DNA from: a virus
Length of the DNA stretch: 64,000 nucleotides
Strand: one strand, 5' to 3'
Virus record (IMG/VR): IMGVR_UViG_3300049489_001336
Coordinates: 64,001-128,000 of that record
The stretch's first letter is position 1, and the number at the start of each line of letters is the position of its first letter. Shown here piece after piece: positions 21,070 to 53,544 of the stretch. The translations under genes and the position numbers were made by a program. The notes beneath the pieces were generated by a model that was given only the letters and a program-made list of their open reading frames with translations, was not told the origin of the DNA and ran no database searches.

Positions 21070-22812
21070 TTAGGCTTCTACGTTTTCAACCACTTCCGTG
21101 GGCGTTTCCGTGACCGCATTCTCAGGCATGACCAAGGGCAAAGCCTTGATCGTCTCCACCCAAGCCTTGGCGTCTTGTCCCTTCACGAAGTTTTCGATAA
21201 CGCCCCATACTGAATCATTGAAACCTCCAATGTTCAAGATGTCAGGGTCATCTGCAGCTTGCGTTGTCGTGTTCGGGGTTACGTCCAAACACACCAACTT
21301 GCAGTTGGCATTACGTGTTTGAATTTTGCGGAACAACTGCTCCATCTCTGTCGGACCTGTTTTGTTGGTCGTCAAGTAGTTGTAACGATTGTGCGCCAGA
21401 GTTGCCCACGATTCGTTGTCCGAAAAGAAAATGATCGTTTCAGCGTCTTCCTTTTTGTCAAGAATATGCTGAAGCCCAAGCTGCAAGCTTGTGCCACCGC
21501 CGCCACACGCTGCCAATTTCTTGGCGTTGGTCATCACCGAATCGAGTGGGTTGAGTTGCAAGCGTGTGTGCAGCGACGTATCGACAGGAATGACGCGGGC
21601 CCCAGGGGTGGTCCGCAGCACGCATGCCGCAAACAACGCGGCCACGTCGATACAACGCATTTTTGTGGTCGCAGACCCCCGTCCCCCTGTCACAGGCGAG
21701 CTCATGGAACCTGACACGTCCGGAAAAACCCAAACGTTGTCGCCGAAAGAAGGCGTATTTTTGGTAGCAATCTCAAGCGCGGCTTGTAGCGCCATTTTGA
21801 TGTCTACCGGGATTTCCGAATTATCTTCGGTCGCCAAATAGGCCATCAAGAGCTGATACGGAAAAACCCGCGCGCGCTGAATTTCTTCAGCGTTCGCAAG
21901 CTTCTCTGCAATCTTCTTTACGACAGCTTTGTCTTTCAGCACGCCATGGCGCTGAAACGTATTGAGGTTCATGCGCGTGAATTGCCATCCGCCATTGAGC
22001 GCGATCGTCGTCCAATCCGCCGTGGACAGAGGCAACGCCGTCAACATCTGGAAAGGAACCTGCGGTACTGTGAGGTTCTCCCCTGCCTTGTACTTTTCGT
22101 AGTCTTGGATGAGCTGCGGGAGTTCATCTTTCTTATAGAACTTCCGTCGCTCTTTCTGCTTCTCGTCGGCCTTGGCTTCCTCAGGGTAGCCTAACAGGTA
22201 TTTGAACGCGGAATCCCGTTGTTTGTCTTCGCCCGCTTTCACGTGGGCAAGACGGATGATGTCCGCCAGAGACGGCGACTCACCGACCGACGCACGGAAC
22301 AGCGCTGCGCCATTTCGCTTGTCGAACCACTGGTGAATAAGCCGTCGCGGCACGGTCCCCAGTGATTTACGCCCCGTCGTGCCCGAGCGAACAATCTGCA
22401 CGAAATTCCGCAGCATCTTATCATTGTCAATGGCGAGCGGAAATGCGCACTCCAACCATTTCTTGGCTTCATCGCGCGCTTCACCTTCCAACGTCTTACA
22501 ACGCGCCGCAAGCAGCGCGCAGAGAAGCGCAGGCATGTCTTTCATATGTCCCGACTTACGGGCATAAACAGCGCACTTCGCGATGTACTCACTAGTACAT
22601 TGCTCCGCGAACTCTTTGACCTTTTGTAGCTGGTCTTCAGGTGAAACGTAATAGGTCTGAGACAAGCACCCTGTTGCTGCAAGTTGCGCAAGGGCGTGTT
22701 CAGGGGTGAAAGCATAAGCTTTACCCCCTGCATTATTAATGGTATTGACAGTGCGCGCAGGCTTAGGTTGTTTTCCAGCCGTAGCAGAAGAAAAAAGCTG
22801 TTTATTAGCCAT
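21070..22812 (-). CDS. rsr: Ro60/TROVE-domain RNA-binding protein with C-terminal vWA domain
   Basis: TROVE hallmarks (N.AGG.AY, YAR..G.MKD.PA, SLAD.IR.AH.K, WQ..RMNLNTF.RHGV, A...PYQL) and MIDAS-type DVSGSM...GGGT....L...I.FSDNESW; ATG at 22812 preferred over the TTG at 22836. Confidence 0.93.
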   Translation of the reverse strand: MANKQLFSSATAGKQPKPARTVNTINNAGGKAYAFTPEHALAQLAATGCLSQTYYVSPEDQLQKVKEFAEQCTSEYIAKCAVYARKSGHMKDMPALLCALLAARCKTLEGEARDEAKKWLECAFPLAIDNDKMLRNFVQIVRSGTTGRKSLGTVPRRLIHQWFDKRNGAALFRASVGESPSLADIIRLAHVKAGEDKQRDSAFKYLLGYPEEAKADEKQKERRKFYKKDELPQLIQDYEKYKAGENLTVPQVPFQMLTALPLSTADWTTIALNGGWQFTRMNLNTFQRHGVLKDKAVVKKIAEKLANAEEIQRARVFPYQLLMAYLATEDNSEIPVDIKMALQAALEIATKNTPSFGDNVWVFPDVSGSMSSPVTGGRGSATTKMRCIDVAALFAACVLRTTPGARVIPVDTSLHTRLQLNPLDSVMTNAKKLAACGGGGTSLQLGLQHILDKKEDAETIIFFSDNESWATLAHNRYNYLTTNKTGPTEMEQLFRKIQTRNANCKLVCLDVTPNTTTQAADDPDILNIGGFNDSVWGVIENFVKGQDAKAWVETIKALPLVMPENAVTETPTEVVENVEA

Positions 22813-22913
22813 GGTGACACACTTTCTAACAGGCAAGATCCTGCTAAATAAAAAATCCGTGAATAACGAATAGCGTCTACTACCACGAGGCAGTAGACGT
22901 GTCGCTTCTTTTA

Positions 22914-24587
22914 TTAAATTTTGTTGGGCCTAATTTCAGTAATGTCTGCAACAGCCGCCTCAATGTCCCTATCCTTTTGTTCACGCCAAAGATGTTGCGC
23001 TAGATTCAACAATGCGACAGCATCGTCAAATGGCAAACGCCCGTCGTTGATTTCCTCCCGACACCGTACAAGAAAGGCGTCAATGTGTTGACGTTTCATG
23101 CCCTCTCGCTTCGAGAGGACACTATTCCTCTCTACTTTCTTGTACCGTTTTTAGCGCGCATTTATGGGGATATAACCACGTATCCAACCGTATTACCGTT
23201 AAGGTCCAGAATCTTCTTTTGGTGCGGTCGAGGCTGCTCCAATAAGTTCTCCATGTCGTTTGCAAGACGCTTAAAAATGCGCGCTACCTCTGGAGAAGGG
23301 TCGCTATCAAACGCATCGTTTTCTGTAGTGATTGTAACCGTGATTTTCATTTCATCACCAAAAACCAGAGGATGGTACCCACGACACCTCCAAACAGCGC
23401 GCCGTACAAAAATGAATTCATATGTAAACTCTTCTGAGGTACATCAATAAGAATCACGCGCGGATTGGTCGGCGTGTCGTCACTTTCTAAGGCATTACGA
23501 AAATCGTGGAACGATTTATCAAATCCCGCGACCGTGCTTTCGATAGACGCGCGGATTTTTTCAGTATTAAGCCATGTTTCAAGTGGCACATTGGCTGGCC
23601 GTTTGGTTACATCGGTGCCTTTGCACTGATGAAACTTCACAAGAACGTGCGGGATAAAAGCGCCGCAACGTTCACATGCTACGCATTCTTCAGGAGTAAA
23701 TCCGGGCATGGGGGTAGCGTACTAAAACCAAGAACAAAATCTATCATAGAGTTCAAGGTGCCGTTTTTTGAAAGCGAGGGGCTTCACGTTTACAACCCTC
23801 ACACGTCACGTGCTCCAAGTCCTCCAGATACGCCCAGCGATGTTCAGGCGGCCACACCCACGGTGCACCCGCGCCACACAGGGCAACTCCGTTGAACAAA
23901 ACATGGACAACTAAATCAGTGTGTAACACCGCTTTTCTCAATTGCTCTAATTCCTGGTGCAACCTCTCGATTGCGTCACAAGCGTCCCATACGTCCTTCG
24001 CTACCACTTCTCGTATTTGGGCTTGCCAGCGTAAATACGGAGAACATTGTTTACGTAAACGGCGTACACACGCTAGGTCATGTGTACGCTGTTCATCTGC
24101 GTTAGACATCTTTCACCAAAGAATCTACTGTGATCTCCGTACGAGACTGCAAATAGGCCCTCATGGTGTACCCTGTTTGTTGATCCTGAATGCGAATCAC
24201 ATCCGGAGTGTACCCCGTCATCCTACGCATCTCGGTAGCGTACTCCACCGCCGCAGCGCTAGCGTCCACCGCGTGGATCTCATGTTTAAACTTACCCTGG
24301 ATACTACAAGTAAAGACGCGCATAACTCCTCCAAGCCTTTACTTGGTATGATAGGCTTAACCCTTCAGTGAAATTTCAATAAGTGTCGTTAGGTAGTATG
24401 CAATAACAAGGTAAATAACCAGGCGCGAAAAAGAGTTATGCAAAATGCGTTTATGCAAGTAAGTGGCGTGAAAAATACGCAGTAATCCGTAAAGGCTTGC
24501 TAACAATGCGCCACTTGCGTTGTTCTGCATAAAGCACAACGCGGCGATCAACACCGACCACCATGCAGCCACGACGTCGTGTGTCAT
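22914..24587 (-). other. run of six small hypothetical ORFs (22914..23099, 23162..23350, 23347..23709, 23753..24109, 24102..24323, 24357..24587)
   Basis: Co-directional, tightly packed; two have hydrophobic segments. Confidence 0.55.
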
Positions 24588-24588
24588 T

Positions 24589-25074
24589 TTAATTATTAAT
24601 TTCTTGAAACATCCAACCCTGGGCGGCCTTAATCGCTTCTTCGGTGCCCATGAGTTGGCGCTTCTTATCGTCCACGACGAGAATCAACAAAGCACGCTGT
24701 GCCATCCGGCTAAGTACGCCCTGCCCACGTTGAAAATCCCCGCGCGCAACCATGACCGGAATTCCGGTGGCTTCTGTGAATTCCTGTCCTGCAGGATGAA
24801 ACATCACCCCGCATTTATCAGGGCGGTCTTCTTCCCAAAAAACTTTGCGGGAATCTTTATGTTCCCAGGTGGCTTCATCGATCCACAAACAAACAAATTC
24901 CTGACAGCTAGCAGGCCGGTCAGCGTAGATTCCACATGAAGTCCCTGTACAGTGCGTACAAGTCACGTTCATGGGCTTATCTAATTCTGTGACCCCCATC
25001 AACGTACAGCACGCGGTGCACTCCCCGCACGCACGCTTCAAAGAGGTAAGTCTTCTTTTATCTTTCTTAGCCAT
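24589..25074 (-). CDS. YkgJ-like Cys-cluster (CxxCxxCC) protein
   Basis: CGECTACC...C.HC....C.IY..RP..C..F.C.W. Confidence 0.8.
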   Translation of the reverse strand: MAKKDKRRLTSLKRACGECTACCTLMGVTELDKPMNVTCTHCTGTSCGIYADRPASCQEFVCLWIDEATWEHKDSRKVFWEEDRPDKCGVMFHPAGQEFTEATGIPVMVARGDFQRGQGVLSRMAQRALLILVVDDKKRQLMGTEEAIKAAQGWMFQEINN

Positions 25075-25979
25075 ATACGAACTCGACTTGGCATACAGTC
25101 TTCAGAAGCAGAATGCTCTGCAAACTTGTGCAATCGCTTCAACTGAACAGGTTGTACTTTAAATTGTGACTTCATCAATTGGGCGTAAGACATATCCTTG
25201 TTCGCAGCCGCCACGATAAGTGGCAACGCTTGCACTGCGTGATTCAAGGACACATCCGAATAGCGCATTTCACGCATCCAAGCTTCATAGCCTTCACACA
25301 AAGGATACGGAGCAGGAGCCACATCAACTCGCGTCCCTTTCACTTTCATATAAATGTACGGCACACTCATTTATCAAGACCCTTCAACCAAGGTAGGAGA
25401 AGATAGAACCAAAAAACGACCCCAAGCGCCATACCAAGTAAGCTTGCTACGATAAGCAGAGCATCCACAGAGACCCGCGGCGGTTCCTCTGCGCGAATTT
25501 CAACCGGAAGTCTTTTCTGAGGACGCCGAATCCGTCTTCGTTTGATAAATTTCATCCTGCGTTTCCTCGGCGGATTCTTCTGCATAGAATAGTTTGTACA
25601 GTGCCTCTTTTAAGTCCGTGCGCAACACAAGAAGGTGCTGCGCCATGTACGTATTTCTTTGCGCATAGCGATCCGCCCACGCGTTGAGCACCGAAAACAT
25701 CCGATGGAGCGGTAGCACCGGTTGGCGATAATAATGGCTAAGCGCCCTAAGAAGCTCTTCAGCTTCTTCGTCGTTTTCGATTTCAATCCTGAGTGGCATC
25801 CGTGGCCTCGTCTTTGACTTCTTTGATATCCACAACGGTAATCCAATCGCGCTTACCTGCTACGCGTTCAAAAAACAAAGAACGCGCTGCCTCAGGGTCG
25901 TCCGGTTTGGCTACCACGAGTTGCGTGTGAGGGCCGTTGTCTAAAACCATGTATTCAACAACGTACGCAGAGGTAGCCA

Positions 25980-26300: not shown

Positions 26301-26328
26301 TAGCCCCTCCTTTATTCTTTTACCGTAA

Positions 26329-28987: not shown

Positions 28988-28992
28988 TAACT

Positions 28993-32098: not shown

Positions 32099-32608
32099 TC
32101 ATCCGACATCGTCGACAAGAATCCAATCGTTTGCGAGAACATCTGTTTGCGACGCGAACCAAGGAACTAGTTTATTGTCTGCCGTCTTCATGACGATGAA
32201 CGGCAACCATGTTCCTACGCAGGGATCGATTTCACGGACTTTGAATTCCTTGTCCGAATAAAGGTCCACGTAGCGTAGCCACATGCCTTTCCCGTTCCAG
32301 CCGGTGCGTGCGACGCGTTTTCCTTGTTTAAGTAATGTGATGGCATCCCCGAAATTCATACATTCCCCTTTCACCGTACGCCTTACCCCTAAGGCGCCAG
32401 GTTCAATGTCTTCTAAGTCTAACAACGCAGGCGCTTTAGGCTGACTTACATGCCAAGCTTCAATTTGTGCATGTTCGTCGGCGCTAAGCGTCCACCAAAG
32501 GTCACTGAGCTCTTCGGCACGTCGGGACTCTTCTGCGTCCGACAACGGCCTGTCTAATTCCAGTTTTATGAACAAATCGAGATAGCGCTCAACACTCATG
32601 GTGTTCAC
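32099..32608 (-). CDS. tad2: DUF2829 / Tad2-like anti-Thoeris sponge domain (32099..32359) in frame with an 83-aa N-terminal extension
   Basis: MNFGDAI.LLK.GKRVAR.GWNGKGMWL...MKTADNKLVPW.ASQTD.LA.DW; internal SD AAGGGG before ATG 32359. Confidence 0.85.
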   Translation of the reverse strand: MNTMSVERYLDLFIKLELDRPLSDAEESRRAEELSDLWWTLSADEHAQIEAWHVSQPKAPALLDLEDIEPGALGVRRTVKGECMNFGDAITLLKQGKRVARTGWNGKGMWLRYVDLYSDKEFKVREIDPCVGTWLPFIVMKTADNKLVPWFASQTDVLANDWILVDDVG

Positions 32609-33488: not shown

Positions 33489-33545
33489 AAAACCTCCAAA
33501 AGGAAAAAGACGGTGCAGCGATTAAGCTCACCGTCTGAAAATTAA

Positions 33546-33655
33546 AGAGTAGCAAAAAGAGAAGAGTATCGAGCTACCAATGCTCGGTCTGCGGCATAAG
33601 AGGAGCCGCAGATTGGATTCGAACCAATAATGTACACCCTTCAGGCATCTACTCT
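33546..33655 (-). ncRNA. Y-RNA-like unit G with permuted tRNA-like domain
   Basis: Terminal helix AGAGUAG/CUACUCU; T arm AUUGG-UUCGAAU-CCAAU, then closed stem CUGCGGC/GCCGCAG, then D-like arm CGAGC-AUUGGUA-GCUCG. Confidence 0.8.
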
Positions 33656-34113: not shown

Positions 34114-34180
34114 TGCGGTGTTCTCCTCCGATTAAAAGAAACACGATTACTACAAGACACTGTTTTTTGCAAAAAAAAAA

Positions 34181-34209
34181 ACGTAGCTACAAACAAGCTG
34201 TAGCTACGT
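34181..34209 (-). terminator. intrinsic terminator after Y-like unit H
   Basis: 11-bp inverted repeat ACGTAGCTACA/TGTAGCTACGT followed on the minus strand by a U10 tract. Confidence 0.8.
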
Positions 34210-34216: not shown

Positions 34217-34367
34217 AGCGGTAACAAAAAGTGAAAAGTCGTTTGGCTTTTGCTCTACCAACTGAGCTACCAGCCTGTAAAGACTTCTGTAAAGACTTCT
34301 GGCAGGCTGGGATGGACTCGAACCACCGACCCAAAGTGTGGATGTAGACCTTTCGGCATTTACCGCT
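34217..34367 (-). ncRNA. Y-RNA-like unit H (YrlA-type)
   Basis: Terminal helix AGCGGUAA/UUACCGCU, GCCGAAAG in the 5' strand, T arm, stem CCAGCCU/AGGCUGG with G-CCA in the closing loop, D arm UAGCUCAGUUGGUAGAGC. Confidence 0.85.
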
Positions 34368-34453
34368 GGTGCAGGAGGAAGGACTCGAACCTCCGAAGTG
34401 CTAAGCACATCTGGTTTACAGCCAGACCCCTTTGCCGCTCGGGACAATCCTGC
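34367..34453 (-). tRNA. trnY: tRNA-Tyr(GUA)
   Basis: Anticodon arm UCUGG-CUGUAAA-CCAGA, variable arm, CCA whose last A is the first base of unit H. Confidence 0.92.
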
Positions 34454-34458
34454 AAAAA

Positions 34459-34591
34459 GAAACAGCAAAATTAGAAGAGTTTATTTTATACTGGTTACCC
34501 AACGCCCCCATAGATTGGTGGAGGCAAGCGGATTCGAACCGCAACAGTCCTTTTGGTCAAAAAAGATGTAAACCCTTCAGGTATCTGTTTC
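34459..34591 (-). ncRNA. Y-RNA-like unit I with Ala-type acceptor stem
   Basis: Terminal helix GAAACAG/CUGUUUC; T loop UUCGAAU; UGCCUCC-A-CCA-AUCUAU-GGGGGCG. Confidence 0.78.
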
Positions 34592-34615
34592 AAAACTCAG
34601 TATGCCGAAACGTGT

Positions 34616-35212
34616 TCAGTCGTGCAAGGCGCCCGAGAACGCAGCCATGAAGTCCACTTCTTCGAGCTTCTTCACGTCCACGATATCATGCTTGGCGCCC
34701 TTGAGGTCGTCATCCAACGCCGTCAAGAAGTTCTGCAGGTCGGGCGCGATATTTCCCACCGTGAGGAAGGAAATCGCAAACTCGTGCTCATCCCGAATGT
34801 CATTGCTGATGTCGATGATGACCTTCTTCACAGCCGCACGGTCCGCAGGCTCGCCGTCGGTGGCGACGAACAGTAGCGTCTGCGCGTACTTGCCTTCCTT
34901 GTGCAGGCTGTAGGCGGCCTTGATAAGCGCGGCGGTGTCCGTCATGCCTTCATTGGCCTTGAGCCCGCCAATGACGTCGTGGGCCTTTTCTGCGGTCACA
35001 TTGCGATAGGGCGTGACCTTCGCGCCAAAGGTGAGGACGTCGATTCCATCTTCGTCCCACTTGCTGGCCTCCGTAGCGAACGTCTTGACCTGTTCCTTGA
35101 GGTACTCAATGCGTGAGGTACCGTTGGGACAATCCGTGGTCTGCATCGAAGCAGAAACGTCCACGCCAAAGATGAAGTTGTCACCGCGATTGAGTTCAAG
35201 CTGAGAAGACAT
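34616..35212 (-). CDS. vWA domain protein
   Basis: MIDAS DVSASM...T...VATDG; visibly GC3-rich codons; probable ATG at 35212. Confidence 0.85.
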   Translation of the reverse strand: MSSQLELNRGDNFIFGVDVSASMQTTDCPNGTSRIEYLKEQVKTFATEASKWDEDGIDVLTFGAKVTPYRNVTAEKAHDVIGGLKANEGMTDTAALIKAAYSLHKEGKYAQTLLFVATDGEPADRAAVKKVIIDISNDIRDEHEFAISFLTVGNIAPDLQNFLTALDDDLKGAKHDIVDVKKLEEVDFMAAFSGALHD

Positions 35213-35508
35213 GTTTCTTTTCTTTCTTTTTTCGGAAATCCACAAATAAATAAACAACAATTAAAGAAGAGACATCACCGAAAGTTTTGTCTCAAACAGC
35301 TTTGACTGTGTACTCGGGAGGTACAAAGAACGCAAGGACTTCTTTGTACACCAGCGAGTCATCGAGCTTATCATGCACATGGAGAAAATACCGAGAACCC
35401 CAACATAGAATTTCCACGCGAGGTTGAAACGGAGGAATTTTCACGTCCGTAACGAATTGACCATCTTTGGTGTAAAGATGCGCCACTTCGTAGAATTCGC
35501 CGTTGACT

Positions 35509-44287: not shown

Positions 44288-46380
44288 GTTCCTACCAACA
44301 CGTTGAACAATCGTTGCTTTTTACCTTGTTGGGTTCGCACGATAAAGGAGTCCTTTTTGGTCGATGAAAACCCCAGGCCCGCGAGTTGATTGTCCGAGGG
44401 CTGGCATTTGGTTTTATCAGCGATAACTTCAAAAACTTTGCGATGCGGCTCTAGGCGCGAGTGCAGGAACTCGTTGTAAAAGCCGCGAATTTCTTCATCA
44501 CATTTAGCGCCCTCCAGCACAAAGAATGTGTGTTTGTTACCCACTGCGTTATCCCCCCAGTAATTGGGACTGAGCATCACAGCGTTGACTTTGACGTATT
44601 GTTCGGTCGTGAGTCCCCATTTCTCTTTCGAGAGATTGGACGACGTAATGGCAGGGTCTCCCACATCCACACGTTCAATACTGCCATTTTTGAGGTAGAG
44701 CGTAGCAACGGTCACGTCTTGACGTGTACGCACAATTTTGTTGTAGGAATAATGGGAAAGTTTACCGCCGCTTTCAGTCTCCACGACAAACCCAGGATTG
44801 CTGGTCTCACGCTGAGAGTAATTATTCACCACGATGCGATACGCGCCGTCGGGCGGGTTAGTCGCCCAAACAATGTTTTCCACAGGCTCTCGTGTGGTAC
44901 CACTGCCTGCGTTCATGTCGACGTCGAGCACACCCCCGGTCCAGCCGCGTTTGTTCCCGAAGTAAATATGTTGCAATGTGGTTTTGACTCCACGACCTGC
45001 AGGCTCATGGATGTGTAAATCCAGGTCGTCGAAGTTGAACCATGAAAGAGATACACGAAGGATGGCGCCGTCGACTTTGCCGCCTGCTTTCTTCACGCGC
45101 TCTTTGATGGAGTCCGCGACATTGCCTCCGTAAGACCATGCAAAGTCATTGGACCAACGAAAGAGTTGCTTGGGCTCGGGATGCGCCGGCGCCGTAATGG
45201 CCATGAGGTTACCCAAGTGCTCTCCTTTGACCAAAAGCTCAAGGCTTTGCGTCTCAGGCAGGACTTTGGACATGAAATCATCGATGCTGATAGACTCAGC
45301 ACGTTCTTCGTCTTTGGCTATGTCACGGGCGGCGTGGGCAGTGGCGTGGTGCATCAGCACGTCGCCAAGGCCGCCACGCATCAGCGGTTTCACGGAACCA
45401 TCGACCCACTTGACATCGTTCACAGAAACGTCGCCAATCACGGCAAAGCGGCGTTCCAGAGCCGCCTCAAGCCCAAGCTCTTCGATGGTTTCCATGGCCT
45501 TTTTGACCATGCCAGGCGTAATCAGCGCGGTCGTACGCTTGTAATTTTGGGGCGCGACTTTGGTTTCAAAACTCGCTACAGCTTGTTCTATATCTTTGCC
45601 TTCCGATAGGTCTTGGACGAGTGTTCCAATCACCGTGTTACGAAAACGCGCCGCAGGACTCTGCGCATTGGCCCAAGCAAAAATACTTTGGTCTTTCGGG
45701 CTACTCTTCAAGAACGTATTTTGTAGCTTTTGAAATTGCTGAAGAGCAGAGCGATGTTCTTGGCCTCGGTACAAACTACTGGCGTCCACCAACGAAAGCA
45801 CCGTGGACACTGCCTCAGGCGTTAATTCCCGAAGACCTCGTTCAAAGACCTGCACCGTCGTACGGTAATTACCACATACGGTGTCAGGCGACGCTACACG
45901 GAGCTTACGCGGAATTTCTTCGGTGTGAAGGTGTCCCCACGTCGTGACCTGTTGGGTTTCTTTGTCGAGAGACCTTGTTTGCACGGCGCCAAACCGTAGC
46001 TCATTGACCCCAACACGAAACAAATCACGAATGCCTACTGAGAGCACCGCGTTTTTCAAGGCTGTGGCGACGTCCGCGTAAAAGTCAGGTCCTTTCTTCG
46101 CGGCTTGGTCCCAGACCGTGTGAAGCTTACCTTTGTCAAAAGACACGACGTTGCCCGCACGACGAATAAACTGCCTGCACATGGAGCAGTCGTGCTCTGT
46201 CTTGGTCTTGAAAATGGGATTGGTGCCTTCAGGAAACGAGGCAAGATAAAGCGCATACAACGCGTCGCCCTCGATGTCGGCGACAAAGGCTTCTTCGGAA
46301 TTGACAATTTCACGGAAAGAAGCAGCGACCCACGTATGGAATTGTTTGCTTCTCTTTTCAGCGACGGCATATTGCGACAT
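44284..46380 (-). CDS. large phage protein with a C-terminal YfaP/DUF2135-like segment
   Basis: 698 aa; LSWFNFDDLDLH..EP...LDVDMNAG....PVENI.W. Confidence 0.6.
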   Translation of the reverse strand: MSQYAVAEKRSKQFHTWVAASFREIVNSEEAFVADIEGDALYALYLASFPEGTNPIFKTKTEHDCSMCRQFIRRAGNVVSFDKGKLHTVWDQAAKKGPDFYADVATALKNAVLSVGIRDLFRVGVNELRFGAVQTRSLDKETQQVTTWGHLHTEEIPRKLRVASPDTVCGNYRTTVQVFERGLRELTPEAVSTVLSLVDASSLYRGQEHRSALQQFQKLQNTFLKSSPKDQSIFAWANAQSPAARFRNTVIGTLVQDLSEGKDIEQAVASFETKVAPQNYKRTTALITPGMVKKAMETIEELGLEAALERRFAVIGDVSVNDVKWVDGSVKPLMRGGLGDVLMHHATAHAARDIAKDEERAESISIDDFMSKVLPETQSLELLVKGEHLGNLMAITAPAHPEPKQLFRWSNDFAWSYGGNVADSIKERVKKAGGKVDGAILRVSLSWFNFDDLDLHIHEPAGRGVKTTLQHIYFGNKRGWTGGVLDVDMNAGSGTTREPVENIVWATNPPDGAYRIVVNNYSQRETSNPGFVVETESGGKLSHYSYNKIVRTRQDVTVATLYLKNGSIERVDVGDPAITSSNLSKEKWGLTTEQYVKVNAVMLSPNYWGDNAVGNKHTFFVLEGAKCDEEIRGFYNEFLHSRLEPHRKVFEVIADKTKCQPSDNQLAGLGFSSTKKDSFIVRTQQGKKQRLFNVLVGT

Positions 46381-48739: not shown

Positions 48740-49171
48740 ATGTCACATTATGAATTAGGTAAACAGACAGCTTTGGTTAAACTGGGGTTTGTTAAAGCGG
48801 CAGGGTTACAGCCGTCTACGCGAGTCATGCTTTCAGAGATCGCGCATGGAGCTGTTCCAGGTCTTGCGGCAGGGGCAGGTACGTACGCCGCTACAGACGA
48901 CCCGATGCTTGCTGCAGGAGCGGGACTGGGCGTGGGTTCGCTTGGGTATGGCACAAAGCTTATGCTCAATCATCCAAGGAAAAGGGATTTGGACTTTGTA
49001 AGTCGCATGCATAGGAACACACGGCAAGGCTTAGACGATATCAATGGCAAAATTAGAGCAGGCGCTGACCCTGCTATGTATGACGGCGTAAAAAAGATTA
49101 AGGAAACGCAGCTTAAACGGGACAAGGAAGAGATGGATAGACTACAAAGTAAATTACAAGGACTTCTTTAA
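48740..49171 (+). CDS. Gly-zipper membrane protein with shared N-terminal motif, paralog of 5779..6432
   Basis: HYELGKQTALVKLGFVKAA; EIAHG.VPG..AG.G.Y...GLG.G.LG(F/Y)G.K..LN..R....DF shared. Confidence 0.75.
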   Translation: MSHYELGKQTALVKLGFVKAAGLQPSTRVMLSEIAHGAVPGLAAGAGTYAATDDPMLAAGAGLGVGSLGYGTKLMLNHPRKRDLDFVSRMHRNTRQGLDDINGKIRAGADPAMYDGVKKIKETQLKRDKEEMDRLQSKLQGLL

Positions 49172-49196
49172 GAATAAAATGATGTAAACGTTGGGG

Positions 49197-50051
49197 TTAC
49201 TCTTTACCATCAACGGTATCAAGTAATGCAGTAGCTCCGTACGTTCCAAGGGCTACTGCAGGTAACTTCATTGCAGTGCCTGCGTAGGTGCCAAAGGCAG
49301 GTAACAACGTCTTAATACCTTTTACCATATCTCTGCGTGTGGCTCCGTTGCGGTACATATTCAATAAACCATGCCCACTGGCATAAGCTTCTTCCGCAAG
49401 TACGGGCACCGTCGGTAGCACAGAGCTGGCTAAATAAGCGTTGCGTTTCGTTTTACTTTCCTCGCCAGGATTCGATTTTTCAGCGTCATACGCGTATAAA
49501 CCTGGAATAAGCCCCAACCACGGTTTACTGAACGTGCTATACCCTAAATTGCCCAACATATGCATTATTTTAGGGGTTTTTTCAAAGTAATGTTTATGCC
49601 CTAACTCATGCGCCAAAGTAGCTGGATTTTTCTGGAATGACGCCTCGCCTAACGTAATCACGTTTTTCTTTGAACTAAAGGATCCCCGGTATGGGGACGT
49701 TCCAGGTTTCCCCCGTTCAACGTTATGTCCTTGAACGAGCTTTTCATAAATCTCTTTTTCTCTAGCCAAATCGTCTAAGTGCGCCTGGCTAGGCTTCTTT
49801 GCATTGGGCGTTAAATGTGCTGTATCTGCATAATAAGATTTATTCAATTCATCCACGATAGCGTTATTACTATGCGTCCCGACCGCGTCACCTAAGAGGT
49901 AACCTGAGTAACCTCCCCCTGCTAGTAGACCCGCATTGAGAATTCTCTGGTCTTCATCACTTAATTCTTTAGCTACCGGCGCAGTAGATGAGCCTGTACG
50001 CATACCCAGTTTGGTAAGAGCAAAATGACGGCCTGCAATATAAGAATTCAT
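49197..50051 (-). CDS. zincin metallopeptidase with shared N-terminal motif
   Basis: SYIAGRHFALTKLGM; AHELGH and downstream EEAYAS (gluzincin-like third ligand); hydrophobic segments. Confidence 0.72.
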   Translation of the reverse strand: MNSYIAGRHFALTKLGMRTGSSTAPVAKELSDEDQRILNAGLLAGGGYSGYLLGDAVGTHSNNAIVDELNKSYYADTAHLTPNAKKPSQAHLDDLAREKEIYEKLVQGHNVERGKPGTSPYRGSFSSKKNVITLGEASFQKNPATLAHELGHKHYFEKTPKIMHMLGNLGYSTFSKPWLGLIPGLYAYDAEKSNPGEESKTKRNAYLASSVLPTVPVLAEEAYASGHGLLNMYRNGATRRDMVKGIKTLLPAFGTYAGTAMKLPAVALGTYGATALLDTVDGKE

Positions 50052-50387
50052 AAGGGTATTATACGCGGTTGCTAACAGCTAAAAAAGAACAACCTTAGAG
50101 CTCTTCGATGCTCAGCCCGGTGTCCTTTAAAATCAAATTAACCCGCTTAACCACAAAGTCTTGCTCTTCAGGACTCAGCGCTGCCCATACAGAGTCTACA
50201 CCGTCTCGTAGCAGAGGATCTACCTGGTCACATGCAGGGCAATACACAAAGCCCCAAATGTGAAATCCAAGGCGACACCATAACCTACGCCACCACCCGT
50301 CTAAGCGTCTAGGCGGCGCTGCGTTACACATGTGAATGATATCGAAGTATTGATGGTGGCGTGGGCCTGGGTATTTGTGAGGCATAA

Positions 50388-50636
50388 TTACTTGGGGTCT
50401 GTGTCTTTATTCTTGAATAAGTGCACGTACGCAGAATGGCAAAGAAATACGAACACCGCGGTGACAATCAGTGCGCCTAACGCGCTTGCGACAATGCCAA
50501 ACAACCAAAAGAAAATACGCAACGCAAACAGCGCGATTAACGCCGCTAGCCCGTAGCTGAGAATCACGGCGACATCACGGGGAATCCACGAAGGGTATTT
50601 GTTGAGAATGTGTGCGGGGATTTCAGGGAGTTTCAT
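50388..50636 (-). CDS. small membrane protein
   Basis: Two long hydrophobic helices. Confidence 0.55.
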   Translation of the reverse strand: MKLPEIPAHILNKYPSWIPRDVAVILSYGLAALIALFALRIFFWLFGIVASALGALIVTAVFVFLCHSAYVHLFKNKDTDPK

Positions 50637-51082
50637 TGAGGGCCTTTGAGCAGGTTAGGTTGAAGCAGACTATGGAGCATCTTTGTAGCTTTTCCTTCTT
50701 CCAATAGCCAGCGGTCTACCTCTCGAACATTGTCGACGTTTACGTTATGCCCCCGCGAACACTGCAACTTGGGCACATGACCAAAGGCTTGGCAAATCCT
50801 GGGTCGAACTTCGTAAATGGCACATACGCCTCGTTGATAAAAAGGACAAGTTAACCCTTGGTCCTTAGGAACAATGTTGTGCTGCGCAATATATTGCTGG
50901 ATTCTCTTGAGCTGTTTATCAGAGACAAACACAGGTCCACAACAATCGCCGCAGAACTTTTCACAGGTCATGCTAGGGAACGTGGGGAGTTTTAGTTTGG
51001 CCAAAGGACCTCCAACGTAAGAGATCTTGCTTACTGCATTGGCTTTTAAGCCGTGTTGGCTCGTTGCGCCGCCGTGGACCAC
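50633..51082 (-). CDS. YkgJ-like Cys-cluster protein
   Basis: CEKFCGDCC...CPFY..G.CAIYEVRP.IC..F. Confidence 0.85.
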   Translation of the reverse strand: MVHGGATSQHGLKANAVSKISYVGGPLAKLKLPTFPSMTCEKFCGDCCGPVFVSDKQLKRIQQYIAQHNIVPKDQGLTCPFYQRGVCAIYEVRPRICQAFGHVPKLQCSRGHNVNVDNVREVDRWLLEEGKATKMLHSLLQPNLLKGPQ

Positions 51083-51274
51083 TCAAGAGCTCAACTTTGA
51101 AATAGCGTACTAAAAAGCAATAACGACTATCTAAAAACGCGTAACAACCAATGCGCCATTCTCCGCATGTCAACGACCTCCAACATTTGTTTAGACATGC
51201 GCCTGTAGGTCTAGAGTACGAATATTCAGGCAAACGCTCAAATTCATCGAGCCATACACGCATGACATTGGCCA

Positions 51275-51387
51275 TAGCGTTCGTGCAAGGACTCGAACCT
51301 TGCTCCCGTTAAAGAATGGAACTGGGGGGAACTCCCTCTAACGGTGTCCAGGTGGCAGGGCATTTACCACAAACAAACAACGAACTA
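51275..51387 (-). ncRNA. tRNA-like structured element, copy 1
   Basis: Acceptor-like GUUCGU/ACGAAC, T arm CAAGG-UUCGAGU-CCUUG, long CCGUUAGAG/CUUUAACGG stem in place of the anticodon arm. Confidence 0.55.
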
Positions 51388-51714
51388 TTATTTGGGCTTG
51401 CCCAAGTTAAAATATTTGCGAATTTCTTCGCCACGTTCTGTGCAACGATACGAGTAGGGTAAATACGGGTGCTTTTCGAGTAAACCCTTAGTAACCAAGA
51501 CCTTGGCGCGCTTACTCTCGGAAGCAGTCAAAGTCTTCGGCGCATCGTACGCGCACAAACTAAGGATATTAAAATCATAAAACGTAAGCCGAAGGGTATT
51601 GCGTACAAAAGGCCAAATCAACTTGGCTGCAGCTTGTATTCCTTCATGGCTTGCAACATCGATAATATCACAGACCAATTCGAGCTCATCGTCGGTGACT
51701 TCCATAACACCTCA

Positions 51715-51811
51715 GTATTCGTGCAAGGACTCGAACCTTGCTCTCTATATAAACAGTGTATCCCTCAGTTTATACAGATGTCCAGGCGGCCGAGGAGAAC
51801 AGCCACGAATA
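51715..51811 (-). ncRNA. tRNA-like structured element, copy 2
   Basis: UAUUCGUG/CACGAAUA, identical T arm, shared CCUGGACA, 10-bp CUGUAUAAAC/GUUUAUAUAG stem. Confidence 0.55.
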
Positions 51812-52209
51812 TAAAAACAAAGAGCGATAGATCGAGATTGCAACCGATGCCTGAGCTACTAACTAAGCCACTGTCTCTTTCAGGCACTGCCAAGAACAGT
51901 AAGCACGAGATGCGACAGCTCAAGCAAGACGTGTTGCGATGTATCGACTCGCGCCGATTCAGTAGAAAGTGCTCTTTGTTCCACCATGCACAGGGTTCGG
52001 AGCGATGTGCACAGTGATAAAAGGTTCGGGTGAAAAGCGGGAAGATTCTCAGATTTTTAGATGGATTACAGAGCTGAACATGCGACTTCAATGAGTAGAG
52101 GCACTGCCATTTCATTGACTTAGTTGTCGACGAGTTGTTGGCTCTGTACAAAGGTTGTTGCCCATGACGGGCGACTTGCTTTTCACCCTAGGAAAACCTC
52201 AACGATAAA

Positions 52210-52716
52210 CTACTCGAAGAGGTCTTCCGTAAGCGTTTTGATTTCGTGCTCCTCCGCATTGCCTTGAGCAATGGCAGCACGCATGGCACTCGCACGCTTG
52301 GCCGCACTCGTGGCATTTTTCAATGCATCACTTGCGCTGACCTGCGTCTGTGCGTAGATTTTGTTCGGGTCCCGCTCGTCTGCAGAATAGCCGTAGCGCT
52401 CTTTCTTGCTGCCTGTGGCTGAGCGCCACATCTTTTCTGCGCGGGCGAGGCCCCCAAGCGCCTTCACGGCAAAGCCCAAGGTGATCAATTCACCGTCAAA
52501 AGGCACTTTGACCTGAAGGTTGTACATCGCCTGTGCTTCTTGCAGCTTGGCAATGGCATACTCTGCCGCCAAATACTGCTTGACTGCATCGACGGGATGT
52601 TCCTTGGTTTCCCCAGGATAAATCTTCAACGAATCATCGAACACTCGGGAAGCCGCGTCTTTACGCAGCTCCCATTGTTTGATGGCTTCACGGATTTTGT
52701 AGCCAGTGACTTTCAC
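52210..52716 (-). CDS. helical hypothetical protein directly downstream of the large Y-like array
   Basis: 168-aa Ala-rich ORF. Confidence 0.7.
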   Translation of the reverse strand: MKVTGYKIREAIKQWELRKDAASRVFDDSLKIYPGETKEHPVDAVKQYLAAEYAIAKLQEAQAMYNLQVKVPFDGELITLGFAVKALGGLARAEKMWRSATGSKKERYGYSADERDPNKIYAQTQVSASDALKNATSAAKRASAMRAAIAQGNAEEHEIKTLTEDLFE

Positions 52717-52769
52717 AAAGCCTCACTAGATAGTAGATGAGAGATACTTATTTACTTTTACCGTACAAC

Positions 52770-52852
52770 AGCTAAAAAAATCGAATATCTGCACGGTCTT
52801 CCATGGGATTTCCCAGCATTACTGCTGAGTCACACCCCGTGCAGATATTCGA
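52770..52852 (-). terminator. long-stem hairpin (16 bp) with branched loop, followed by UUUUUUUAGC
   Basis: TCGAATATCTGCACGG (52781-52796) and CCGTGCAGATATTCGA (52837-52852). Confidence 0.7.
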
Positions 52853-52861
52853 AAAACAAGC

Positions 52862-52938
52862 GTGGAAGCAAACTTGCGATGTTCCGTTTTCGGATCCCTT
52901 TTGGGGAGCGTAGATGTAGACATCACGACATCTTCCAC
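52862..52938 (-). ncRNA. Y-RNA-like unit A (short, no tRNA domain)
   Basis: Terminal helix GUGGAAG/CUUCCAC with the shared AUG...GUCUACAU and UUUG core. Confidence 0.7.
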
Positions 52939-52948
52939 AAACTTAAAC

Positions 52949-53079
52949 GGCCAGCAAAGATTTGAGAAGTCTATTTTACGCGTGCTGCCATTACACCACC
53001 AACAGTGTTACCTGCTGGACAGGATTCGAACCTGCTCCTCGTCCGCCCAATGGATGTAAACCTCTCGGGGCATCTGGCC
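52949..53079 (-). ncRNA. Y-RNA-like unit B (permuted tRNA domain)
   Basis: GGCCAG/CUGGCC; T arm GCAGG-UUCGAAU-CCUGU; CCAGCAG/CUGUUGG; D arm GUGU-AAUGGCA-GCAC. Confidence 0.83.
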
Positions 53080-53090
53080 AAAACTTAAAC

Positions 53091-53224
53091 GGTCAGCAAA
53101 GATTGAAGAGTCTATTTACGCGCTCTACCACTGAGCTACCCCGGCATAGATGGCGCCAGGGGCAAGGATTTGAACCTTGCATCCTCGTCCTTAGCATGGA
53201 TGTAAACCCTTCGGGCATCTGACC
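53091..53224 (-). ncRNA. Y-RNA-like unit C (permuted tRNA domain)
   Basis: GGUCAG/CUGACC; GAAGGGUUUA/UAGACUCUUC; T arm; CCCUGGC-G-CCA-UCUAU-GCCGGGG; D arm UAGCUCAGUGGUAGAGC. Confidence 0.87.
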
Positions 53225-53234
53225 AAAACTTAAA

Positions 53235-53375
53235 GCGACAGCAAAAGGCGCAGTGTCTAAATCCCTTGCGGGAGTCTGCTGCTCTACTTTTGAGCTACAC
53301 GCTTAAACAACAAGCGTAACTGGATTTGAACCAGTAACCCGCAGATTTCAATGTAGACACTACTACATCTGTCGC
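53235..53375 (-). ncRNA. Y-RNA-like unit D (permuted tRNA domain)
   Basis: GCGACAG/CUGUCGC; GUAGUGUCUA/UAGACACUGC; UCUGC/GCAGA junction stem; T and D arms. Confidence 0.85.
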
Positions 53376-53386
53376 AGACACTAAAA

Positions 53387-53470
53387 GGGATAGCAAAGAG
53401 TTGTCGAGTTTAGCCCCTTGCGGAGCAATTTTCTTAGCCAGAAATGTAAACCCAACGGGGCATCTATCCC
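53387..53470 (-). ncRNA. Y-RNA-like unit E (short)
   Basis: GGGAUAG/CUAUCCC with shared core; no T or D arms. Confidence 0.72.
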
Positions 53471-53481
53471 AAAACTTAAAC

Positions 53482-53544
53482 GGGCAGCAAAGGATCGTCT
53501 GAGTCGCAATTACCAAAAATGTAGACCCAAACAAGCATCTGCCC
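53482..53544 (-). ncRNA. Y-RNA-like unit F (63 nt, minimal)
   Basis: GGGCAG/CUGCCC with shared core; GGGUCU/AGACUC-type inner pairing. Confidence 0.68.

What the first reader, a model, noticed from the sequence alone, without database searches (positions are those of the whole stretch)
21070..53544. Phage Ro60 with nine dispersed Y-RNA-like ncRNAs: an expanded RNP system
Seen: a full-length TROVE-vWA gene plus nine minus-strand units sharing one scaffold: a unit-specific terminal helix, conserved AUG opposite UUUG, then a G(U/C)UUA or GUCUA helix pairing with UA(G/A)AC followed by CAU. The terminal helices all differ yet each is perfectly complementary (GUGGAAG/CUUCCAC, GGCCAG/CUGGCC, GGUCAG/CUGACC, GCGACAG/CUGUCGC, GGGAUAG/CUAUCCC, GGGCAG/CUGCCC, AGAGUAG/CUACUCU, AGCGGUAA/UUACCGCU, GAAACAG/CUGUUUC), which is direct covariation evidence. 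Six contain T arm, then closed acceptor stem, then D arm. Known: YrlA Y RNAs have this permuted tRNA domain on a Ro60-binding stem, tether Ro60 to partners such as PNPase, and usually occur as one or two genes next to rsr, including in some mycobacteriophages. Inference: a repertoire of interchangeable adaptor RNAs on one Ro60, acting as tRNA decoys against anticodon nucleases or tRNA-sensing defences, or redirecting host RNA decay. The copy number, the distance from rsr (11-30 kb) and the modular variants look unusual.
Basis: partly seen in the sequence, partly recalled or inferred. Interest (0 to 1): 0.92.

Follow-up and report, generated by a model that had tools for sequence, protein, structure and literature searches.

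The report
Nine Y RNA genes in a Ro60 phage
A 190-kb freshwater phage that encodes the RNA-binding ring protein Ro60 also carries nine distinct Y-RNA-like genes in tandem arrays, and the same pattern of up to eleven such RNAs, often embedded in tRNA clusters, occurs in many other Ro60-encoding large phages.

Summary
All nine minus-strand units exist at the stated helices. A descriptor scan and a purpose-built covariance model find exactly these nine in the whole 189,879-bp phage genome.

They are clustered rather than dispersed:
- A six-unit tandem array at 52862-53544 has a promoter-like site upstream and a terminator hairpin downstream.
- U7, tRNA-Tyr and U8 lie at 34217-34591 and end in a terminator. 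U9 lies at 33546-33655.

The shared scaffold is the consensus Ro60-binding stem of Rfam YrlA. Four units match YrlA end to end (E 7e-11 to 0.17), all below the gathering score. Six carry the permuted T-arm, closed acceptor and D-arm module; three are minimal.

Covariation over 27 units from six phage sources is strong: 95% of cells paired, against 35-49% in slid controls.

The repertoire is not exceptional. Of 50 IMG/VR phage records with Ro60 relatives, 44 have units. Counts reach 11, units often abut tRNA genes, and some lie 10-30 kb from rsr. T4, T5 and KVP40 gave no strong full-length hit; their best was 20 bits.

Ro60 binding, expression and function are untested. The anticodon-nuclease decoy idea fits the anatomy poorly, because the modules have no anticodon loop.

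I class this as a new variant of a known kind, of moderate interest.

The parts
21070..22836 (-). rsr: Ro60 orthologue (TROVE ring plus vWA_Ro60 domain). The longest ORF is 588 aa from a TTG start. The protein collection holds a 580-aa form, which would start at 22812.
   Evidence: Pfam vWA_Ro60 7.4e-14 and TROVE 1.8e-7. It matches D. radiodurans Rsr 2NVO (2.3e-14), phage phiLo Ro60 9KOP/9L5Y and vertebrate Ro60, with DVSGSM MIDAS conserved. It is 44.6% identical to Myxococcus phage Mx1 Ro60.
53551..53579 (-). Promoter-like site of array A: TTGACA, 17 nt, TAAAGA. It ends 6 nt before the first base of U1.
   Evidence: Read from the sequence. The consensus scan did not list it because the last base of the -10 element is A. 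Equivalent TTGAC(A/G), 16-17 nt, TAnAnT sites precede the arrays in L018, L021 and L024. It is an inference and was not tested.
53482..53544 (-). U1: minimal Y-RNA-like unit of 63 nt, with stem, loop and stem only.
   Evidence: CM R1 28.8 bits, E 4e-5, although U1 was not in the training set. z -3.0.
53387..53470 (-). U2: short unit of 84 nt with two small apical hairpins.
   Evidence: R1 43.8 bits, E 4e-9, not in the training set. z -2.9.
53235..53375 (-). U3: long unit of 141 nt with T arm, closed acceptor-like stem and D arm inside an extra helix.
   Evidence: Rfam YrlA 34.1 bits, E 7e-4. R1 93.4 bits. z -3.9.
53091..53224 (-). U4: long unit of 134 nt with V arm (loop GGACGAGG), T arm, acceptor-like stem and D arm.
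   Evidence: Rfam YrlA 42.7 bits, E 2e-6, full-length alignment. Its nearest relative is a unit of another phage, L022:9217-9351 at 73%, rather than its paralogue U5 at 69%.
52949..53079 (-). U5: long unit of 131 nt of the same V-arm type as U4.
   Evidence: Rfam YrlA 25.8 bits, E 0.17. R1 86.4 bits. Alignment A5.
52862..52938 (-). U6: short unit of 77 nt with two small hairpins and no tRNA-like module.
   Evidence: R1 30.4 bits, E 1.6e-5, not in the training set. z -3.1.
52774..52852 (-). Terminator-like element after array A: a 16-bp outer stem enclosing an inner hairpin, followed by seven U.
   Evidence: MFE -38.5 kcal/mol, z -6.1, 0 of 200 shuffles as stable. Sequence.
34599..34627 (-). 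Promoter-like site of array B: TTGCAC, 17 nt, CATACT. It ends 7 nt before U7 and overlaps the stop codon of the VWA gene.
   Evidence: Read from the sequence. It is an inference.
34459..34591 (-). U7: long unit of 133 nt with a V-like hairpin, T arm, acceptor-like stem and a short D-like arm. AUA replaces AUG.
   Evidence: R1 94.1 bits. z -4.2. No Rfam YrlA hit at E<=1.
34367..34453 (-). tRNA-Tyr (GTA) with encoded CCA, 5 nt after U7 and directly abutting U8.
   Evidence: ARAGORN. Rfam tRNA 40.7 bits.
34217..34367 (-). U8: long unit of about 150 nt and the best YrlA match. Its long acceptor-like stem has a loop containing a 12-nt tandem duplication.
   Evidence: Rfam YrlA 58.2 bits, E 7e-11, model 1-114. 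R1 97 bits.
34171..34209 (-). Intrinsic terminator after U8: a 12-bp stem followed by ten T.
   Evidence: Terminator scan.
33546..33655 (-). U9: compact long unit of 110 nt with T arm, acceptor-like stem and D arm. It lies about 560 nt downstream of U8, beyond two small ORFs.
   Evidence: R1 92.9 bits. z -4.6.
33504..33536 (-). Terminator-like hairpin with a U tract after U9.
   Evidence: Read from the sequence. The scan did not list it.

Best explanation
The nine units are genes for YrlA-class bacterial-type Y RNAs that serve the phage's own Ro60.

Shown:
- Each unit has the conserved two-helix stem with an asymmetric internal loop that defines the Ro60-binding module of YrlA. This is helix, AUG, second helix, UACAU, a variable stretch, second helix strand, UUUG and the closing helix strand.
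- Six units carry the permuted tRNA-like effector module. Three carry only small hairpins.
- The family is conserved with compensatory changes, and in related phages and bacteria it lies beside rsr.

Inferred:
- Array A, and the U7-tRNA-Tyr-U8 unit, are each transcribed from a sigma-70-like promoter whose predicted start coincides with the first unit. No convincing promoter was found for U9.
- The precursors are cut in the 5-11 nt A/U-rich spacers and at the tRNA borders by host tRNA-processing and RNA-decay enzymes such as RNase P, RNase Z or RNase E, followed by exonucleolytic trimming.
- The resulting 63-151 nt RNAs dock by the conserved stem on the outer face of the Ro60 ring.
- The variable modules then gate the Ro60 cavity or tether Ro60 to different host partners. 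The best precedent is the 3'-5' exoribonuclease PNPase (RYPER complex).
- The distinct terminal helices probably keep neighbouring units from mispairing within the precursor.

What the phage gains is open: host RNA turnover, tRNA or rRNA quality control during infection, or counter-defence.
For: Scaffold identity:
- The Rfam YrlA consensus reads cggCgaAUGC, a helix, CUAc, a variable stretch, UuGucGccg. U8 and U4 align to it end to end.
- Four units hit YrlA at E 7e-11 to 0.17 in a 35-kb search.

Specificity in the genome:
- CM R1 was trained on six long units plus two Mx1 units. It recovers the three untrained short units and nothing else, with a gap from 28.8 to 18.7 bits.

Linkage to rsr in relatives:
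- L018 has four units plus a tRNA-like segment read by eye, 420-970 nt upstream of rsr.
- L021 has four units 76-430 nt downstream of rsr, followed by a tRNA read from the sequence.
- L022, L024 and L025 have units upstream of rsr. Mx1 has two units in its tRNA cluster.
- Bacterial Ro60 loci L032 and L033 also have several same-scaffold units.

Covariation on 27 units:
- 95.3% of cells are paired, against 66% in shuffles and 35-49% in slid controls.
- 153 cells show a change on both sides, against 43 in shuffles.
- The terminal helix is 100% paired, and all five modelled pairs covary.

Association with Ro60:
- 44 of 50 Ro60-encoding IMG/VR records have hits at E<=1e-4.
- The tRNA-rich, Ro60-less phages T4, T5 and KVP40 give only partial tRNA-type hits, plus one 20-bit full-length hit.

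Other points:
- Paralogues are 40-72% identical, and U4 is closer to a unit of another phage than to U5. The units are therefore old and maintained, not recent duplicates.
- The Ro60 gene is intact.
- Identical DNA is present in contigs from a second freshwater study, so the array is not an assembly artefact.
- Precedent: phage phiLo Ro60 binds two phage-encoded Y-like RNAs and host PNPase in vitro (PMC12135203). YrlA is bound by Rsr in Salmonella and M. smegmatis (PMC4201824).
Against: - There is no expression or binding evidence of any kind.
- All Rfam YrlA scores lie below the gathering score of 69 bits; the best is 58.2. U7, U9 and the three short units give no significant Rfam Y-RNA hit.
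- The canonical GNCGAAN0-1G motif is altered in all nine. Seven read CAGAUG, UAGAUG or AAGAUG, U7 reads CAGAUA, and U8 reads UAAAUG. Relatives mostly keep CGAAUG or CAAAUG.
- The units are 11 and 30 kb from rsr, so the linkage argument rests on relatives.
- The covariation alignment was fitted to the model, which favours the structure.
- The promoters are weak consensus matches that the scan tool did not call.
Confidence: 0.8

Rival explanations
1. The units are Y-like RNAs that act without the phage Ro60. They would work as sponges or decoys for host factors that recognise the tRNA elbow or structured stems, such as RNase P, TruB, DusA, PNPase, host Ro60 or a tRNA-sensing defence. The phage Ro60 would play an unrelated role.
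For: - The units are unlinked from rsr in this genome, at 11 and 30 kb.
- In many relatives they sit inside tRNA clusters, not beside rsr.
- YrlA is a substrate of TruB, DusA and RNase P (PMC4201824).
- A Tad2-like anti-defence gene lies about 1 kb from U9.
Against: - The part conserved across all units, including the three that lack any tRNA-like module, is precisely the YrlA Ro60-binding stem.
- Full-length units were found in 44 of 50 Ro60-encoding phage records, and no strong one in three Ro60-less tRNA-rich phages.
- In L018, L021, L022, L024 and L025 the arrays abut rsr on the same strand.
Confidence: 0.1
2. The tRNA-like units are decoys that absorb anticodon nucleases such as PrrC or RloC, or PARIS-type tRNA-targeting defences.
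For: - The phage invests in its own tRNAs, with nine tRNA genes.
- Units are co-transcribed with tRNA-Tyr.
- A Ro60-like protein of phage Bas63 counters the Ppl defence (preprint PMC11482910).
Against: - None of the modules has an anticodon stem-loop. The Ro60-binding stem occupies that position, and the acceptor end is closed by a loop. The YrlA crystal structure shows no free CCA end and a kinked anticodon-equivalent stem (bioRxiv 10.1101/312249).
- Three of the nine units have no tRNA-like part at all.
- The genome has no RNA-repair genes such as RtcB, Rnl2 or a CCA-adding enzyme.
Confidence: 0.05
3. The units are decayed or rearranged tRNA genes, such as tandem-tRNA junctions, or a structured repeat family with no RNA function of its own.
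For: - Adjacent tRNAs can mimic the T-arm to D-arm part of YrlA. Partial hits of this kind occur in T4, T5 and KVP40, and Chen et al. caution about them (PMC4201824).
- In U4, U7 and U8 the acceptor-like loop begins with CCA, as a tRNA-tRNA junction would.
Against: - ARAGORN calls no tRNA in any unit.
- Every unit keeps a perfect 6-8 bp terminal helix and second helix through compensatory changes at 40-72% pairwise identity.
- The short units have no tRNA parts.
- Unit types are conserved between phages.
Confidence: 0.03

Closest known systems
YrlA (Rfam RF02553), the tRNA-like Y RNA of Salmonella, M. smegmatis and mycobacteriophages (Chen et al. 2014, PMC4201824; structure in bioRxiv 10.1101/312249)
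   Same: - Two-module design: a 5'/3' stem with an AUG/UUG internal loop as Ro60-binding module, then CUAC/UACAU, T arm, closed acceptor-like stem and D arm.
- Same strand as rsr.
- U8, U4, U3 and U5 align to the full model.
   Different: - All units score below the gathering score.
- The CGAA core of the GNCGAAN0-1G motif is replaced, mostly by CAGA, with matching changes on the 3' strand.
- There are extra V arms and long acceptor loops.
- There are nine copies rather than one or two.
- The units lie 11-30 kb from rsr instead of within 4 kb.
- They are arranged as polycistronic arrays.
YrlB (Rfam RF02565), the second, smaller Y RNA of Salmonella
   Same: A shorter Ro60-bound RNA encoded with YrlA, with the same kind of stem but a reduced effector module. 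This is analogous to U1, U2 and U6.
   Different: There is no sequence membership: U1 gives 19.1 bits against a gathering score of 97, E 0.67. According to PMC4201824, YrlB still contains a T arm. U1, U2 and U6 do not.
Yrl1 and Yrl2 of Thermus phage phiLo with phiRo60 (PMC12135203)
   Same: A phage-encoded Ro60 with phage-encoded Y-like RNAs. In vitro it forms a ternary complex with host PNPase. This is the best precedent for how the RNP here may work.
   Different: There are two RNAs, directly upstream of the Ro60 gene. phiRo60 is only distantly related to this Ro60 (phmmer E 1.7e-9). No arrays or tRNA interleaving are described.
D. radiodurans Yrn1 / RYPER (Rsr, Y RNA and PNPase)
   Same: The Y RNA tethers Ro60 to an exoribonuclease through its non-Ro-binding module. 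Yrn1 contains a T-arm-like stem-loop.
   Different: Yrn1 has a different module order and is thought to have evolved independently of YrlA (PMC4201824). No phage is involved.
Expanded Y-RNA families in animals: two to four Y RNAs in vertebrates (PMC4201824), and the many stem-bulge RNAs of nematodes (my own recollection, not checked here)
   Same: One Ro60 is served by several Y-RNA paralogues that share the binding stem and differ in the loop module.
   Different: They are separate Pol III genes, not polycistronic arrays, and have no tRNA-like module.

Membership tests
YrlA (Rfam RF02553) | Score at or above the curated gathering score (69 bits) | tested here: not met
   The best score is 58.2 bits (U8). 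U4 scores 42.7, U3 34.1 and U5 25.8, and the others give no hit.
YrlA (Rfam RF02553) | A stem formed by the 5' and 3' ends, carrying the Ro60-binding internal loop (consensus cggCgaAUGC on the 5' side and UuGucGccg on the 3' side) | tested here: met
   It is present in 9 of 9 units, with AUG (AUA in U7) opposite UUUG and a perfect 6-8 bp closing helix.
YrlA (Rfam RF02553) | Exact GNCGAAN0-1G motif (Chen et al. 2014) | tested here: not met
   No focal unit has it. Seven read CAGAUG, UAGAUG or AAGAUG, U7 reads CAGAUA, and U8 reads UAAAUG. Several units of related phages keep GGCGAAUG. The changed bases are paired and covary, so this is a variant of the motif, not its loss.
YrlA (Rfam RF02553) | tRNA-like effector module in the order T arm, closed acceptor-like stem-loop, D arm | tested here: met
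   It is met in U3, U4, U5, U7, U8 and U9, with T loops UUCGAAU, UUCAAAU or UUCGAGU and D arms of the GUAGCUCAGUGGUAGAGC type. It is absent in U1, U2 and U6.
YrlA (Rfam RF02553) | Encoded within about 4 kb of rsr on the same strand (criterion of Chen et al. 2014) | tested here: not met
   The strand is the same, but the units lie 10.7-11.8 kb and 30.0-30.7 kb away. The criterion is met by homologous units in L018, L021, L022, L024 and L025.
YrlA (Rfam RF02553) | Bound by Ro60/Rsr in vivo | not testable with these tools
   No RNA-protein tool was available, and no RNA run holds the sequence.
YrlB (Rfam RF02565) | Sequence and structure match to the model | tested here: not met
   U1 gives 19.1 bits against a gathering score of 97, E 0.67. 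U2 and U6 give nothing.
tRNA (RF00005 / ARAGORN) | Cloverleaf with an anticodon arm and an open acceptor end | tested here: not met
   ARAGORN calls only tRNA-Tyr in the two regions. Rfam tRNA hits inside units are partial or span two units, at 22.6 and 28.7 bits, below the gathering score of 29.
Ro60 / Rsr (TROVE plus vWA) | HEAT-repeat TROVE ring, followed by a vWA domain with a MIDAS motif | tested here: met
   Pfam TROVE and vWA_Ro60 both score above their cut-offs. The protein aligns over residues 32-483 to Rsr 2NVO, with DVSGSM conserved.

The most novel reading that the evidence does not exclude
Ro60-encoding large phages use a single Ro60 ring with a library of up to about eleven different Y RNAs, produced from tRNA-style polycistronic operons. 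Conserved unit types differ in their effector module: a tRNA-like elbow with or without a V arm bearing GGACGAGG, or minimal hairpins. Each type would direct the same protein to a different host partner or substrate class. The system would then be a multiplexed, RNA-programmed host-takeover or counter-defence device, not a simple one-RNA, one-protein RNP.
Probability: 0.25. Interest if true: 0.8.

Novelty: new variant of a known kind. Interest (0 to 1): 0.58.

Why it matters
Bacterial and phage Y RNAs are described as one or two genes beside rsr, and the partner of their tRNA-like module is still unknown. This locus and its relatives show three things.
- In large environmental phages the repertoire is commonly 3-11 RNAs.
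- The RNAs are organised like, and often within, tRNA operons.
- They fall into types that are conserved between phages.

This has three practical consequences.
- It gives a natural series of module variants on one constant Ro60-binding stem. That makes the effector question directly testable, by pull-downs with each module.
- It means that searches limited to within 4 kb of rsr undercount Y RNAs.
- It flags small 'hypothetical protein' calls in phage tRNA clusters as probable Y RNAs. An example is WNM70101.1 of the cultivable Myxococcus phage Mx1.

Mx1 offers an experimental entry point.

Tried and rejected
- **RNA evidence.** No RNA holder is listed for the array.
- **Natural variation.** Laying contigs from three DNA runs showed identical sequence and no variants, so they gave no natural covariation data.
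- **Close relatives in public collections.** A blastn of array A against the phage collection found nothing. A single-protein scan of IMG/VR with Ro60 found nothing. A DNA-pattern scan gave one contig, L017, with no unit under R1 and therefore spurious.
- **RNA-repair partners.** RtcB, Rnl2-type RNA ligase and CCA-adding enzyme are absent from the genome. One related contig, L024, does have rsr followed two genes later by RtcB.
- **VWA protein.** The VWA protein upstream of array B is not similar to the VWA protein of Mx1.
- **CCA in acceptor-like loops.** CCA at the start of the loop occurs in U4, U7 and U8 but in none of about 24 long units of relatives, so it is not a family feature.
- **GGCATAAGA motif.** It is only weakly enriched (18 matches against 12 expected). 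One copy lies 59 nt upstream of U1. I did not pursue it.
- **Closest Ro60 relatives.** P0002, P0003 and P0007 (58-72% identity) show no unit near rsr, but two of the three contigs are only about 3 kb long. The contigs for P0005 had no DNA available.
- **Tools and sources that failed.** The supplementary tables of Chen 2014 and the 2020 Annual Review were not held.
- **Structured-RNA islands elsewhere in the genome.** Another reader reported retron-like RNA units beyond the window. I viewed one region, and R1 does not hit it. I did not analyse it further.

Full report
**Origin of the window**

The window is bases 64001-128000 of a 189,879-bp IMG/VR virus record that CheckV rates 100% complete. 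It encodes a helicase, a DNA ligase and virion structural proteins. The whole genome carries nine tRNA genes, all on the minus strand. The same DNA occurs in freshwater sediment and freshwater metagenomes from two studies.

**Check of the observation**

- A descriptor of the scaffold returns exactly these nine in the whole genome. Their contiguous closing helices are 7-8 bp long. Shuffled genomes gave 0-3 hits.
- Folded alone, each unit gives the closing helix, an asymmetric internal loop (AUG side against UUUG side) and a second helix as its minimum-energy structure. The z-scores run from -2.1 to -4.6.
- Six units (U3, U4, U5, U7, U8, U9) contain a T arm, a closed acceptor-like stem and a D arm. 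U1, U2 and U6 are 63-84 nt and lack these.
- The Ro60 gene at 21070-22836(-) has TROVE and vWA_Ro60 domains. It aligns to D. radiodurans Rsr, phage phiLo Ro60 and vertebrate Ro60, and its MIDAS motif is intact.

**Arrangement**

The units are not scattered singly.

- *Array A (52862-53544).* Six units lie head to tail with 9-11 nt spacers, mostly GUUUAAGUUUU.
  - A TTGACA, 17 nt, TAAAGA site ends 6 nt before U1.
  - A hairpin of -38.5 kcal/mol (z -6.1) with seven U follows U6.
- *Array B.* It starts with a TTGCAC, 17 nt, CATACT site 7 nt before U7.
  - Five nt after U7 comes tRNA-Tyr with encoded CCA.
  - U8 abuts the tRNA and is followed by a 12-bp terminator with ten T.
- *U9.* It lies about 560 nt further downstream, with its own terminator-like hairpin.

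The promoter assignments are read by eye and are inferences. The consensus scan did not list them.

**What the units are**

The scaffold is the consensus of Rfam YrlA. That consensus reads cggCgaAUGC, a helix, CUAc, the tRNA-like part, a helix, then UuGucGccg.

- U8 (58.2 bits, E 7e-11), U4, U3 and U5 align to the full model. None reaches the gathering score of 69 bits.
- I built a covariance model, R1, from the six long units and two units of Myxococcus phage Mx1.
- R1 recovers the three untrained short units at E 4e-9 to 4e-5.
- It finds nothing else in the genome above 18.7 bits.

The GNCGAAN0-1G motif of Chen et al. (PMC4201824) lies at the junction of the closing helix and the loop. Several units of relatives keep the exact motif (GGCGAAUG), and many more read CGAAUG or CAAAUG. 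In the focal phage the sequence is mostly CAGAUG, with matching changes on the 3' strand.

**Relatives**

The Ro60 is 44.6% identical to that of Mx1. It is 52-72% identical to proteins on metagenomic phage contigs, and about 48-50% identical to Ro60 of Acidobacteria-like bacteria.

| Source | Position of rsr | Units found |
|---|---|---|
| L018 | 10001-11626 | four units at 9030-9578 with a tRNA-like segment (read by eye) among them; a fifth at 2949 |
| L021 | 3865-5571 | four units at 5647-6001, followed by a tRNA (read from the sequence) |
| L022, L025 | 10001 onward | a long unit plus a short unit just upstream of rsr |
| L024 | 10001-11653 | at least two scored units, a third found by eye, and a tRNA-like segment read from the sequence, all upstream of rsr; RtcB two genes downstream |
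| Mx1 | 56915-58564 of the record | two units in the tRNA cluster about 11 kb upstream; one overlaps a 40-aa 'hypothetical protein' call |
| L032, L033 (bacterial) | 6001 onward | two to four clear same-scaffold units within about 6 kb |

- *Covariation.* On the 27-unit alignment, 95.3% of cells pair, against 66% in shuffles and 35-49% with the partner slid.
  - 153 cells have changes on both sides, against 43 in shuffles.
  - All five modelled pairs of the closing helix covary with no mispair.
  - The alignment was fitted to the model, which favours the structure. The single-sequence folds and the anchor-based helix counts are independent of it.
- *Age of the paralogues.* Paralogues within the focal phage are 40-72% identical. 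U4 is closer to L022:9217-9351 (73%) than to U5 (69%).
- *Unit types.* The V-arm type (U4 and U5 plus units of L018, L022 and L025) shares the loop motif GGACG(A/U)GG. The unit types are therefore old and maintained.

**How unusual is it?**

Against the literature it is unusual.

- Chen et al. reported 355 YrlAs in 254 bacteria and 22 phages, all within 4 kb of rsr.
- phiLo has two Yrls upstream of its Ro60 gene (PMC12135203).
- A jumbo-phage survey mentions only a TROVE protein with 'a tRNA-like partner' (PMC7824862).
- In my own check, Myrna and GMA2 each have one full-length YrlA-type hit, and Bmoc has none.

Against metagenomic phages it is typical.

- R1 was run over 50 IMG/VR records that encode Ro60 relatives at 39-54% identity. 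It hits 44 of them at E<=1e-4.
- Counts are 11 in G003 and G033, 10 in G002, 9 in G051, 8 in G004, and 7 in four further records.
- In G003 all eleven listed hits are full length. Two abut rsr and nine lie 13-20 kb away.
- I inspected G003, G002, G051 and G033. There the units carry the canonical stem and are interleaved with tRNA genes at 0-10 nt spacing. One example is two short units followed by tRNA-Tyr, as in the focal array B.
- The Ro60-less, tRNA-rich phages T4, T5 and KVP40 give only partial T-arm to D-arm hits below 29 bits, plus one 20-bit full-length hit.
- Atu_ph07 was run in the same call and gave only partial hits. Its Ro60 status was not established.

The focal phage is therefore one well-preserved example of a widespread organisation that I could not find described in the literature searched. 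It has a pure six-unit Y-RNA operon. The two closest Ro60 relatives with usable DNA, and L026, show no units near rsr, but two of those three contigs are only about 3 kb long.

**Mechanism**

- *Shown:* the anatomy, its conservation, and its association with Ro60 genes.
- *From established knowledge:* Y RNAs bind the outer face of the Ro60 ring through the conserved stem. They gate the cavity or tether Ro60 to an effector. The effector is PNPase in D. radiodurans and, in vitro, in phage phiLo. [quoted passage not shown]
- *Inferred here:*
  - transcription of array A and of U7-tRNA-Tyr-U8 as polycistronic precursors from host-type promoters;
  - release by the host tRNA-processing and decay machinery;
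  - assembly of up to nine alternative Ro60 RNPs whose modules select different partners;
  - unit-specific closing helices that prevent mispairing between neighbours.

The anticodon-nuclease decoy idea is disfavoured, because there is no anticodon arm and three units have no tRNA part. An RNA-repair role lacks support here, because the genome has no RtcB, no Rnl2-type RNA ligase and no CCA-adding enzyme. A counter-defence role remains possible. A Ro60-like protein of phage Bas63 counters the Ppl system (preprint PMC11482910), and a Tad2-like gene lies near U9.

**Verdict**

The identification as YrlA-class Y RNAs is well supported by computation but has no experimental support. The functional claims are open, and the claimed exceptionality is not borne out among relatives.

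I rate it a new variant of a known kind, with interest 0.58. The value lies less in this one phage than in the general pattern it exposes.

Noticed in passing
window 34616-35260 (-): A stand-alone VWA_2-domain protein of 214 aa ends inside the promoter-like site of the U7-tRNA-Tyr-U8 unit. Ro60 itself ends in a vWA domain. Mx1 and contig L025 also have VWA proteins in the region, but the Mx1 protein shows no BLASTP similarity to this one.
   Followed up: partly
window 32099-32608 (-): A protein with a Tad2-like (Thoeris anti-defence 2) domain, Pfam E 1.7e-26, lies about 1 kb downstream of U9.
   Followed up: no
window 19779-20354 (-): An RNase_T/DEDD-type exonuclease (Pfam E 7e-6) lies two genes downstream of rsr. 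The relatives examined show no such gene next to rsr. It could be a phage-encoded nuclease partner.
   Followed up: no
window 3531-3713 (-): A group I intron (Rfam 56.5 bits, above the gathering score) lies immediately downstream of tRNA-Val within the tRNA cluster.
   Followed up: no
L001 8613-8735 (Mx1 record 45524-45646): The annotated 40-aa 'hypothetical protein' WNM70101.1 of Myxococcus phage Mx1 overlaps a Y-RNA-like unit (R1 75 bits). It is probably a false gene call. A 70-aa call at L018 9037-9249 overlaps units in the same way.
   Followed up: partly
window 53139-53161 (U4), 34510-34531 (U7), 34272-34311 (U8): In three of the six long focal units the loop closing the acceptor-like stem begins with CCA, as a tRNA 3' end would. 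None of about 24 long units from relatives shows this. The tRNA-Tyr gene of this phage encodes CCA.
   Followed up: partly
alignment A5; window 53180-53200 (U4) and 53036-53056 (U5): The V-arm loop motif GGACG(A/U)GG is conserved at sequence level in U4, U5 and their counterparts in L018, L022 and L025. This suggests sequence-specific recognition. Its partner is unknown.
   Followed up: no
L024 10001-14360: A related phage-like contig has rsr followed by a RimK-like ATP-grasp gene and RtcB, with Y-RNA-like units and a tRNA-like segment upstream. This is the bacterial rsr-rtcB linkage in a phage-like context.
   Followed up: no
R1 does not hit them. I viewed one island but did not analyse it.
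   Followed up: no
L114 331-574; L118 954-1148; window 34217-34591: A tRNA-Tyr gene directly flanked by Y-RNA-like units recurs in three divergent Ro60 phages: the focal phage, G003 and G051. This may be an ancestral arrangement.
   Followed up: no
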